Of a stretch of 64,000 nucleotides of DNA, positions 44,290 through 45,018 are shown piece after piece. Numbering within the stretch: position 1 is the first letter of the stretch; each line of letters opens with the position of its first letter. The DNA lies in NCBI GenBank assembly GCA_020348985.1, contig CP070761.1:1790931-1854930 (forward strand). The letters run 5' to 3'. The notes beneath the pieces were generated by a model. The model made no database searches. It was given only the letters and a program-made list of their open reading frames with translations, and was not told where the DNA came from. The translations under genes were made by a program, and so were the position numbers. This DNA is from Candidatus Thorarchaeota archaeon. Lineage in GTDB: Archaea > Asgardarchaeota > Thorarchaeia > Thorarchaeales > Thorarchaeaceae.

Positions 44290-44610
44290 GTCGTGTTAGC
44301 TTCATGAGCAGCTTCATCGAACGGACGCTCAGAAGTTAAAATCCTCCGCAACACACATAGAGAAAAAGGATTCTAGTACGGCGAATCTTCACCTACAAAG
44401 TGACTGGACAAATCGCTCTGAATAGAACTACAAACTGCTTTTTGACTTTGTTTAGAACTATACATCGCTAATGTGACAATGATAATTCCCTAATTCCTAA
44501 TAAAAGGTCTAGAAGACGCTGGTGGCCTGATTGGAGCAGAATGGTATAGGCTACAGATTCGAGAATATCTTTACTCTTTATTTGTGCCGTAATGCCCCGA
44601 GGTGATATCA

Positions 44611-44712
44611 TTGCCTCTCGAGACATGGTATGAACCTGAACCAGAGAAAGAGGAAGAAGACGACTGGGACGATGACGATTGGGAAGACGATTCGGACGAT
44701 GATGACTGGTAG
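44611..44712 (+). CDS. Hyper-acidic 33-aa micro-protein MPLETWYEPEPEKEEEDDWDDDDWEDDSDDDDW
   Basis: SD GAGGTGA at 44599-44605, TTG start (alternative in-frame GTG at 44602), TAG stop; codon-level GAY/GAR repetition with synonymous variation. Confidence 0.75.
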   Translation: MPLETWYEPEPEKEEEDDWDDDDWEDDSDDDDW

Positions 44713-44844
44713 AAAGAGCATCACTGACTCTGATTCCAAGATCATCTTACTTCCCAAATATGACACTTGTGAAACTTGAACACATAGTTTCATCTTGTAT
44801 GAAACTTACGGCACTAAGCCTAACCCAATTCGGATGGACGAACG

Positions 44845-44934
44845 TTGGCAAAGAAGAAACCATCAACTCCAAAGAAGAAAGCCGCTCCTGAGAAGAAGGC
44901 AGCTCCGAAGAAGAAGGGCGGAAAGAAGAAGTAG
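44845..44934 (+). CDS. Hyper-basic 29-aa micro-protein MAKKKPSTPKKKAAPEKKAAPKKKGGKKK (histone H1 tail-like)
   Basis: TTG start with an in-frame TAA at 44821, TAG stop; 14 Lys; PKKK/AAP repeats in one frame; T-tract at ~45010. Confidence 0.75.
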   Translation: MAKKKPSTPKKKAAPEKKAAPKKKGGKKK

Positions 44935-44994
44935 AGACTTACGTGGGTTGAAGTTGAAAGAGCTCTATCCTATGCAAAGGATTTGCTTCCATCT

Positions 44995-45018
44995 CCAACC
45001 CCGCCCCCCTTTTTTTTG
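44995..45018 (+). terminator. C-rich/oligo-T terminator after the micro-gene pair
   Basis: ccaaccccgccccccttttttttg. Confidence 0.5.

What the first reader, a model, noticed from the sequence alone, without database searches (positions are those of the whole stretch)
44599..45018. Adjacent micro-genes encoding an extremely acidic peptide and a histone-H1-tail-like basic peptide: candidate linker-histone/acidic-chaperone pair
Seen: two co-oriented sORFs below the ORF-track cut-off, 132 bp apart and ending at an oligo-T terminator. 44611-44712 encodes MPLETWYEPEPEKEEEDDWDDDDWEDDSDDDDW (20 D/E, 1 K, 4 W) and has a strong GAGGTGA SD. 44845-44934 encodes MAKKKPSTPKKKAAPEKKAAPKKKGGKKK (14 K, 1 E). 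Both show synonymous codon variation in a single frame, which argues for coding rather than DNA-level repeats. Established: K/A/P-rich tails with TPKK/SPKK motifs define the C-terminal domain of eukaryotic linker histone H1 and bacterial Hc1/AlgP-type condensing proteins, and H1 is chaperoned by the small polyacidic disordered protein prothymosin-alpha. Inference: this may be a minimal DNA-condensing polycation with a co-encoded polyanionic chaperone/DNA mimic, or a charge-complementary coacervate pair, in a probable Asgard archaeon.
Basis: partly seen in the sequence, partly recalled or inferred. Interest (0 to 1): 0.88.

Follow-up and report, generated by a model that had tools for sequence, protein, structure and literature searches.

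The report
Acidic-tryptophan and lysine micro-gene pair
Two tiny, never-annotated genes of an Asgard (Thorarchaeota) archaeon, one for an extremely acidic tryptophan-studded peptide and one for a lysine-rich peptide, are real and conserved; they always sit beside a very basic orphan protein, but their function is still only inferred.

Summary
The acidic sORF is 44611-44712, the Lys-rich sORF is 44845-44934, the Shine-Dalgarno (SD) site is GAGGTGA, and an oligo-T run follows. Both genes start with TTG, not ATG.

Both genes are conserved. In more than 40 Thorarchaeota genomes an acidic Asp/Glu/Trp micro-gene (25-33 codons) lies divergently upstream of an orthologue of the 283-aa gene 43438-44289, which I call c0. 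SD, start, stop and reading frame are kept. dN/dS is about 0.14-0.19.

In about two thirds of loci the MAKKKP... micro-gene follows, with no terminator in between. Elsewhere it is diverged, decayed or absent.

c0 is single-copy and very basic (pI 10-11). It has no Pfam match. Its model shows a Cas2/PaaX/ChrB_N-like core plus a three-helix bundle.

A second Asgard family and a more distant lineage carry the same three genes in other arrangements.

The H1/prothymosin reading is only partly supported. The pair and its synteny are real. But the TPKK motif is not conserved, the basic gene is dispensable, and the acidic peptide's constant partner is c0.

Best guess: a Trp-anchored polyanionic ligand of the basic proteins encoded next to it.

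None of the seven peptide sequences I looked up, from three genomes, is in a 15-billion-protein collection. Earlier agents of this scan noted the same family on other DNA.

The parts
43438..44289 (-). c0: a 283-aa, very basic (pI 11.3) orphan protein, transcribed divergently from the micro-genes. Its model has a Cas2/PaaX_M/ChrB_N-like core plus a three-helix bundle.
   Evidence: No Pfam, NCBIfam or PADLOC match. Orthologues at 26-35% identity lie next to the acidic sORF in every pair locus. The AlphaFold2 model has pLDDT 78. Foldseek best matches are PaaX 8a39 (E 0.013), Rv0674 and Cas2 chains at probability 0.7-0.9. Atlas structure neighbours include ChrB_N/PaaX_M clusters at TM about 0.5. 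c0 is single-copy in the genome.
44290..44598 (.). Divergent control region. The block TTTACTC (44570-44576) lies about 25 nt before the SD. A GTGAC block lies at about 44400. A 24-nt direct repeat lies at 44416-44439 and 44446-44469.
   Evidence: In the alignment of 19 loci, the blocks GGTGACAC, TAATATCTTTGTCTAC, TTGATAA and TTTTACTC are conserved across genera. Reading these blocks as promoter or operator is inference.
44599..44605 (+). Shine-Dalgarno site GAGGTGA of the acidic micro-gene.
   Evidence: GAGGTG is present 5-7 nt before the start in all aligned orthologues.
44611..44712 (+). Acidic Trp micro-gene: TTG start, 33 codons, net charge -19, C-terminal Trp.
   Evidence: The 19-sequence alignment A4 has an invariant Trp and flanking Asp. 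All indels are in frame. dN/dS is about 0.14.
44713..44844 (+). Spacer with no T-run of 5 or more. It holds an SD-like GGATGGA at 44832-44838.
   Evidence: Spacers in 18 loci have T-runs of at most 4, while T5-T7 runs follow the basic gene. One metatranscriptome contig spans 44706-44928.
44845..44934 (+). Lys-rich micro-gene: TTG start, 29 codons, net charge +13.
   Evidence: In alignment A5 the N-terminal MAKKKP and the C-terminal KKK run are invariant. dN/dS is about 0.19.
45010..45017 (+). T8 run, the likely archaeal transcription stop for the two-gene unit.
   Evidence: T5-T7 runs, often after a hairpin, follow the basic gene in orthologous loci.

Best explanation
The two sORFs are real, translated micro-protein genes. 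They form one short transcription unit, and with the divergent gene c0 they form a conserved three-gene module of Thorarchaeota and at least one other Asgard family.

Shown:
- Conserved SD, start, stop and frame.
- Purifying selection on both peptides.
- Near-universal linkage of the acidic gene to c0.
- Frequent but dispensable presence of the Lys gene.

Inferred mechanism: the acidic peptide is a disordered polyanion that docks through its spaced Trp residues. Each Trp inserts into a hydrophobic pocket while the flanking Asp/Glu pair with Lys/Arg of the partner. Its target is the basic protein or proteins encoded beside it, chiefly c0, a probable nucleic-acid-binding regulator of Cas2/PaaX/ChrB_N type. 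Binding would mask or compete with c0's polyanion-binding surface. The Lys peptide would be an accessory third component that binds either the acidic peptide or the same nucleic acid.
For: Coding:
- GAGGTG lies 5-7 nt before the start in all orthologues, and one locus has an in-frame TGA just before the ATG.
- Lengths vary only by whole codons.
- dN/dS is about 0.14 for the acidic gene and 0.19 for the basic gene.
- One Trp and its neighbouring Asp columns are invariant.

Module:
- 18 of 19 pair loci have enough upstream DNA, and all 18 have c0 divergent upstream.
- 32 of the 34 c0 loci from named Thorarchaeota records that have more than 300 nt of upstream DNA carry the acidic sORF.
- Family f12 has c0-like, then Lys sORF, then acidic sORF, all on one strand. 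hhalign gives E 1.6e-5 on the Cas2-like core.
- A distant c0 relative (E 1e-10) again has a divergent acidic-then-Lys pair.

One transcript:
- No T-run of 5 or more in any spacer, and T5-T7 after the basic gene.
- An RNA-library contig spans 44706-44928 at about 98% identity.

c0 as a polyanion binder:
- pI 10.2-11.3 in all orthologues.
- 10 of 25 invariant columns are Arg or Lys.
- Cas2/PaaX/ChrB_N-like fold.

Binding mode precedent: the eIF3j acidic motif is centred on Trp52, which fills a pocket of the eIF3b RRM while acidic residues contact Lys. W52A or Asp-to-Lys changes abolish binding (PMC2824034).
Against: - No direct evidence of translation or of any binding.
- The fold assignment for c0 is weak: Foldseek E 0.013 and TM about 0.5, and there is no sequence match to PaaX_M or ChrB_N.
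- A second acidic paralogue in this genome, and in three relatives, lies away from any c0, between a nitrilase-type hydrolase and MTAP. The peptide therefore has, or also has, a c0-independent role.
- Divergent gene order is equally expected if c0 merely regulates the micro-operon.
Confidence: 0.4

Rival explanations
1. First reader's model. The Lys peptide is a minimal H1/Hc1-like DNA-condensing polycation. The acidic peptide is its prothymosin-like chaperone or DNA mimic, or the two form a coacervate pair.
For: The pair is adjacent in about two thirds of loci across three Thorarchaeota genera, in family f12 and in a distant lineage. Charges are opposite, -16 to -21 against +9 to +13. The two genes are probably co-transcribed.
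Against: S/TPKK is not conserved. The Lys gene is absent, decayed or replaced by a less basic form in lineages that keep the acidic gene and c0. The acidic paralogue has no Lys partner. The peptides are 19-29 aa, far shorter than H1 tails. There is no histone or chromatin gene in the neighbourhood.
Confidence: 0.15
2. c0 is simply a PaaX/ChrB-type transcription regulator of the divergent micro-operon. The peptides act elsewhere, for example on the ribosome or in translation, like the acidic-Trp motif plus Lys-rich stretch of eIF3j/Hcr1. Alternatively they act as a DSS1/Sem1-like adaptor.
For: Divergent regulator-target layout with conserved intergenic blocks. The fold is PaaX/ChrB_N-like. The composition resembles the eIF3j acidic motif and DSS1 (own knowledge). 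The acidic paralogue functions without c0 nearby.
Against: The c0 model shows no recognisable winged helix-turn-helix. No profile match to DSS1. eIF3 is not known in archaea (own knowledge). In f12 c0-like lies on the same strand as the micro-genes, in the order c0-like, Lys sORF, acidic sORF; this fits an operon of partners better than a regulator and its target.
Confidence: 0.2
3. The sORFs are cis-acting leader peptides. Translation of poly-Asp/Glu or poly-Lys runs stalls or destabilises ribosomes and so tunes expression of a downstream gene, or senses Mg2+, Trp or polyamines.
For: Runs of acidic residues and of Lys codons are known to perturb elongation (own knowledge). The paralogue lies beside MTAP, a polyamine by-product enzyme.
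Against: The unit ends at a T-run with no co-oriented gene downstream, and in several loci the next gene is convergent. Trp positions, the N-terminal MHFDDEDVW and the C-terminal Trp are conserved at the amino-acid level, with synonymous change.
Confidence: 0.05
4. The frames are not coding. They are GA-rich simple-sequence DNA or parts of a non-coding RNA.
For: The DNA is low-complexity, and antisense and shifted frames are also open.
Against: Conserved SD, start and stop, in-frame indels only, dN/dS well below 1, no Rfam match and no RNA fold signal at z -0.46.
Confidence: 0.03

Closest known systems
Prothymosin-alpha with the linker histone H1 C-terminal tail (eukaryotic disordered polyelectrolyte complex; own knowledge)
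   Same: One strongly acidic and one Lys/Ala/Pro-rich disordered polypeptide that could bind each other by charge.
   Different: The peptides here are 4-5 times shorter and are separate micro-genes. There is no sequence relationship. The S/TPKK motif is not conserved. The basic member is dispensable. There is no chromatin context. Spaced Trp residues are a defining feature here and are absent from prothymosin.
N-terminal acidic motif of eIF3j/Hcr1 (PMC2824034; PDB 2KRB)
   Same: An Asp/Glu stretch centred on a conserved Trp that anchors in a hydrophobic pocket while the acids contact Lys. In Hcr1 a Lys/Pro/Ala-rich stretch follows (own knowledge).
   Different: eIF3j is a protein of about 260 aa belonging to a eukaryotic complex. 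There is no profile match. Its partner, the eIF3b RRM, is not known in archaea. Here the acidic and basic parts are separate genes and the neighbour is c0.
DSS1/Sem1 (Pfam PF05160)
   Same: A small, disordered, acidic protein with conserved Trp that docks on basic grooves of several partners and can mimic DNA (own knowledge).
   Different: There is no match to the profile, either in the peptide scan or in a six-frame search of the genome. The peptide is half the length. No proteasome-lid, BRCA2 or TREX-2 genes lie nearby.
PaaX and ChrB N-terminal domain proteins (PF20803, PF20229; PDB 8a39, 3kfw), compared with c0
   Same: A Cas2-like ferredoxin-fold core followed by a helical domain. The gene often lies divergent from its target genes.
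   Different: There is no sequence-level match. The c0 N-terminal 85 residues are not modelled as a winged helix. c0 is far more basic. No small-molecule pathway genes lie adjacent.
Acidic (A) motif of WASP-family activators and the cortactin DDW motif, which bind Arp2/3 (own knowledge)
   Same: An Asp/Glu run with a critical Trp near the C-terminus.
   Different: There are no WH2 or connector elements. No Arp2/3 subunit was found in the genome, though that search had no positive control. The conserved neighbour c0 has no cytoskeletal signature.

Membership tests
Linker histone H1 C-terminal tail / Hc1 / AlgP-type condensing proteins | Repeated S/TPKK or KPAA-type motifs conserved among members | tested here: not met
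   One STPKKK occurs in the window copy only. None of the 14 aligned orthologues has S/TPKK.
Linker histone H1 C-terminal tail / Hc1 / AlgP-type condensing proteins | Long basic tail (about 100 aa) or full protein matching a family profile | tested here: not met
   The peptides are 19-29 aa. There is no Pfam or NCBIfam match at E up to 10 or 1. Low-complexity filters limit this test.
Linker histone H1 C-terminal tail / Hc1 / AlgP-type condensing proteins | Binds and compacts DNA | not testable with these tools
   Needs EMSA or compaction assays with synthetic peptide.
Prothymosin-alpha-like acidic chaperone | Binds the co-encoded polycation with high affinity while disordered | not testable with these tools
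   Needs ITC, NMR or single-molecule FRET.
DSS1/Sem1 (PF05160) | Match to the family profile | tested here: not met
   No hit for six acidic peptides at E up to 10. No hit in a six-frame search of the genome at E up to 10. Composition filters may hide weak similarity.
eIF3j N-terminal acidic motif | Acidic stretch centred on a conserved Trp | tested here: met
   Invariant Trp flanked by invariant Asp in alignment A4. The motif definition is from PMC2824034. This is a motif-level resemblance, not homology.
eIF3j N-terminal acidic motif | Part of eIF3j, and the partner eIF3b RRM is present | not tested
   eIF3 is not known in archaea (own knowledge). I made no search for an RRM partner.
WASP-type Arp2/3-binding acidic motif | Arp2/3 complex present in the organism | tested here: inconclusive
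   No PF05856 (ARPC4) match in the genome, but the control genomes gave no hit either. Actin is present at 440 bits.
PaaX / ChrB_N (for c0) | Cas2-like central domain followed by a helical domain | tested here: inconclusive
   Foldseek: PaaX 8a39 at E 0.013, Rv0674, and Cas2 chains at probability 0.7-0.9 over about 85 aa. Atlas structure rows: ChrB_N/PaaX_M at TM 0.41-0.51. No Pfam sequence match.
PaaX / ChrB_N (for c0) | N-terminal winged helix-turn-helix DNA-binding domain (PaaX) | tested here: inconclusive
   Model residues 14-69 are strand-helix-strand-strand-helix-strand at modest confidence. This is not the wHTH order, but the region is poorly modelled.
LysW/ArgW amino-group carrier proteins | Zinc-ribbon globular domain, C-terminal Glu acceptor, and lysX-type ligase genes nearby | tested here: not met
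   The peptides have no Cys pairs. Most end in Trp, and only genus g3 ends in Glu. Neighbours are c0, nitrilase-type hydrolase, MTAP and ATC-hydrolase-like genes.

The most novel reading that the evidence does not exclude
A three-component electrostatic switch that is widespread in Asgard archaea. The Trp-anchored polyanionic micro-protein would act as an anti-factor or nucleic-acid mimic that sequesters a very basic Cas2/ChrB_N-like nucleic-acid-binding protein. The poly-Lys micro-protein would titrate it. This would be a free-standing archaeal counterpart of the acidic-Trp docking motifs and polyelectrolyte pairs of eukaryotes (eIF3j, DSS1, H1/prothymosin).
Probability: 0.15. Interest if true: 0.85.

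Novelty: categorically new. Interest (0 to 1): 0.7.

Why it matters
Micro-proteins below gene-caller cut-offs are largely invisible. None of the seven peptide sequences I looked up, from three genomes, exists in a 15-billion-protein collection.

Here an entire conserved module has gone undescribed: two oppositely charged peptides plus an orphan basic protein. It occurs in the archaeal lineage closest to eukaryotes.

If the acidic peptide docks by Trp anchors on basic partners, this would show that the acidic-Trp short linear motif logic of eukaryotic regulation already existed in Asgard archaea as stand-alone genes. It would also give a very small, synthetically accessible system for studying polyelectrolyte recognition.

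If it is only a regulator and its target, it still defines three new protein families.

Tried and rejected
- **Profile search for the acidic peptide.** HMMER with alignment A1 across the family found only 10 of 86 genomes, although pattern and synteny searches show it in most. Composition filters make HMM searches unreliable here.
- **PDB sequence search** with the acidic profile found nothing.
- **MAKKKP pattern outside the family** hit only unrelated proteins.
- **[DE]4-Trp-stop pattern.** It is enriched in f1 (69 of 85) and f12 (18 of 19). Most other hits are C-termini of larger proteins or chance matches.
- **Complex prediction of c0 with the acidic peptide** gave no answer (score 0.00), so it is evidence neither way.
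- **VIA-wide fold search of c0** returned only generic three-helix bundles.
- **PDB, NCBIfam and PADLOC searches of c0** found nothing useful.
- **RNA structure and Rfam.** No RNA fold signal (z -0.46) and no Rfam match in the region. The bacterial-type terminator scan found nothing.
- **RNA-library coverage.** Outside 44706-44928 the metatranscriptome run gave only low-complexity fragments from other organisms. The acidic ORF itself was not covered.
- **Literature.** Searches found no paper on such peptides, none holding both Asgard and DSS1, and none on ChrB/PaaX/Cas2-like proteins.
- **LysW-like carrier and Arp2/3-ligand readings** were considered and set aside (see Membership tests).
- **Operator-like repeats** in the intergenic region differ between genera. 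I make no operator claim.

Full report
**1. What is in the window**

The sequence and the six-frame ORF list confirm two co-oriented sORFs. They lie in the 870-nt gap between gene 43438-44289 (minus strand) and gene 45163-46218 (minus strand).
- The acidic sORF runs 44611-44712. It has 33 codons, four Trp and net charge -19. GAGGTGA lies at 44599-44605.
- The Lys-rich sORF runs 44845-44934. It has 29 codons and net charge +13. A GGATGGA lies 6 nt before it.
- A T8 run lies at 45010-45017.
- Both genes start with TTG, not ATG.
- The window is archaeal: it holds an archaeal SSU rRNA end and intron-bearing tRNAs.
- The genome encodes a eukaryote-type actin at 440 bits.
- Relatives that share the locus carry record titles naming Candidatus Thorarchaeota, among them SMTZ1-45 and AB_25.

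**2. Both frames are conserved genes**

A DNA search of relatives, followed by frame analysis, recovered orthologous acidic sORFs of 25-33 codons.
- Their consensus begins MHFDDEDVW and usually ends in Trp.
- Each is preceded by GAGGTG 5-7 nt upstream of an ATG. In one locus an in-frame TGA sits directly before that ATG.
- In the 19-locus alignment all length differences are whole codons.
- One Trp and its flanking Asp columns are invariant.
- The Lys-rich sORF (19-29 codons) keeps an invariant MAKKKP start and a KKK(K) end.
- Rough Nei-Gojobori estimates on equal-length pairs give dN/dS of about 0.14 (acidic) and 0.19 (basic).
- There is no Rfam match and no RNA folding signal (z -0.46).
- None of the seven peptide sequences I looked up, from three genomes, is in a collection of about 15 billion predicted proteins. 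They have never been called as genes there.

**3. One transcription unit**
- None of 18 spacers has a T-run longer than 4.
- T5-T7 runs, often after a hairpin, follow the basic gene.
- A 223-nt contig from a sediment metatranscriptome covers 44706-44928 at about 98% identity. That span runs from the last codons of the acidic gene, through the spacer, into nearly all of the basic gene.
- This is a weak hint of co-transcription. RNA libraries can contain DNA, and a contig does not prove a single transcript.

**4. The constant partner is the neighbouring gene, not the Lys peptide**
- Eighteen of the 19 pair loci have enough upstream DNA, and all 18 have an orthologue of 43438-44289 (here c0) divergently upstream. 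Identity is only 26-35%.
- I then searched species-representative genomes with the c0 alignment. This returned 40 loci, nearly all titled Thorarchaeota.
- Of the 34 loci with more than 300 nt of upstream DNA, 32 carry the acidic sORF.
- The Lys sORF follows in about two thirds of them.
- In two loci it is replaced by a longer, less basic form that has its own strong SD.
- In two loci it is visibly decayed.
- In six loci it is absent, and in three of these the acidic gene is followed directly by a convergent MTAP gene.
- This genome also has a second acidic paralogue without c0 or a Lys gene. It lies between a nitrilase-type hydrolase and MTAP. Three relatives have the same arrangement.
- So the acidic gene plus c0 is the core of the module, and the Lys gene is a frequent accessory.

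**5. What c0 is**
- c0 is single-copy.
- It has no Pfam, NCBIfam, PADLOC or PDB sequence match.
- All 86 sequence relatives are Thorarchaeota-type hypothetical proteins.
- Every orthologue is very basic, with pI 10.2-11.3.
- Ten of 25 invariant columns are Arg or Lys, clustered around a motif IRLRPG.
- An AlphaFold2 model (pLDDT 78) shows a small N-terminal alpha/beta region, a ferredoxin-like core and three long helices.
- Foldseek ranks PaaX (8a39, E 0.013), the PaaX-like Rv0674 and several Cas2 chains (probability 0.7-0.9 over about 85 residues) at the top.
- Atlas structure neighbours are Thorarchaeota and Bathyarchaeota hypotheticals (TM 0.7-0.8), then ChrB_N/PaaX_M clusters (TM about 0.5).
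- The assignment is suggestive, not secure.

**6. The module is older than Thorarchaeota**
- The pattern [Asp/Glu]x4-Trp-stop is strongly enriched in family f1 (69 of 85 genomes) and in a second Asgard family, f12 (18 of 19), against few control hits.
- In f12 a 280-aa protein of pI 10.5-11.2 carries the same IRxRPG motif. It aligns to the c0 profile at hhalign E 1.6e-5.
- On the same strand it is followed by a MAKKKSGKK... sORF, a spacer of about 170 nt, an acidic Trp sORF and a T-run.
- An exhaustive profile search found more distant c0 relatives. One of them again has a divergent acidic-then-Lys pair. Others have only Lys/Arg-rich micro-ORFs beside them.

**7. Mechanism**
- Shown: three conserved genes, two of them micro-genes of opposite extreme charge, linked across deep divergence and in different orders.
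- Inferred: the acidic peptide acts as a disordered polyanion whose spaced Trp residues serve as anchors.
- The best-documented precedent is the eIF3j acidic motif. There Trp52 fills a pocket of the eIF3b RRM, flanking acids contact Lys, and W52A or Asp-to-Lys changes abolish binding (PMC2824034).
- The most economical target is c0, with its invariant Arg/Lys surface. The peptide would mask that surface or compete with nucleic acid for it.
- The Lys peptide could titrate the acidic peptide or bind the same nucleic acid.
- I give this 0.4.
- The c0-free paralogue shows that the peptide also has, or originally had, another partner.
- The complex prediction for c0 with the peptide gave no verdict and counts neither way.

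**8. Rivals**
- H1/prothymosin model: it keeps the attraction of charge complementarity and frequent adjacency. It is weakened by the non-conserved TPKK motif, the dispensability of the Lys gene, the small peptide size and the absence of any chromatin link (0.15).
- Regulator model: c0 may simply regulate the micro-operon while the peptides act elsewhere, on the ribosome like eIF3j or as a DSS1-like adaptor. There is no profile support for either family, and the f12 gene order looks like an operon of partners (0.2).
- Leader-peptide model: it is unlikely because nothing co-oriented lies downstream and the peptides are conserved at the amino-acid level (0.05).
- Non-coding reading: it is essentially excluded (0.03).

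**9. Earlier notes of this scan**

After I had reached the c0/PaaX-ChrB reading, a look-up showed that other agents had reported the same kind of acidic-Trp and Lys micro-gene pairs on other Asgard DNA.
- Neighbours named there were a basic ChrB/PaaX-like protein, ABCE1, SAVED sensors and a PadR regulator.
- Closest-known systems proposed there were DSS1, eIF3j and LysW.
- I took the eIF3j paper as a lead and read it myself.
- I tested the Thorarchaeota distribution and the c0 fold independently.
- I did not test the ABCE1, SAVED or PadR contexts.

**10. Verdict**

This is an undescribed, conserved micro-protein module with no member of any known family. Function remains inferred. Interest 0.7.

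Noticed in passing
Outside the window: locus L115:1961-2077 (+), which is genome C1:796360-796476: A second acidic Trp micro-gene of 38 codons that ends in Trp, without c0 or a Lys gene. It lies between a nitrilase-type CN hydrolase and an MTAP gene. The same context occurs in three relatives (L016, L017, L005).
   Followed up: partly
Outside the window: genome C1:1917491-1917859 (-): A roughly 120-aa Cys-rich (zinc-ribbon-like) protein whose C-terminus is an Asp/Glu run ending in Trp-Asp. It is reminiscent of the same acidic-Trp motif attached to a folded domain.
   Followed up: no
window:44416-44469: Two imperfect 24-nt direct repeats spaced 30 nt apart in the c0 / micro-gene intergenic region. 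They are a possible operator, but the repeats are not the same in other genera.
   Followed up: partly
window:45163-46218 (-) and 46135-46998 (+): Two divergent, overlapping-start paralogues that each carry an ATC_hydrolase (PF14196) domain. They are not syntenic with the micro-gene module in other genomes.
   Followed up: no
L157:2522-2608 (+), L157:1077-1136 (-) and L159:920-1093 (-): Distant c0-like genes in metagenome contigs are flanked by Lys/Arg-rich micro-ORFs with no acidic partner. This suggests that the link between c0-like proteins and charged micro-ORFs is broader than the acidic gene.
   Followed up: partly
Loci L010, L012, L006, L009 (relatives): Lys/Ala/Pro/Glu-rich low-complexity tails are common on larger Thorarchaeota proteins, for example on a PPIase-like protein. 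DNA-level hits to the Lys sORF are therefore often unrelated.
   Followed up: partly
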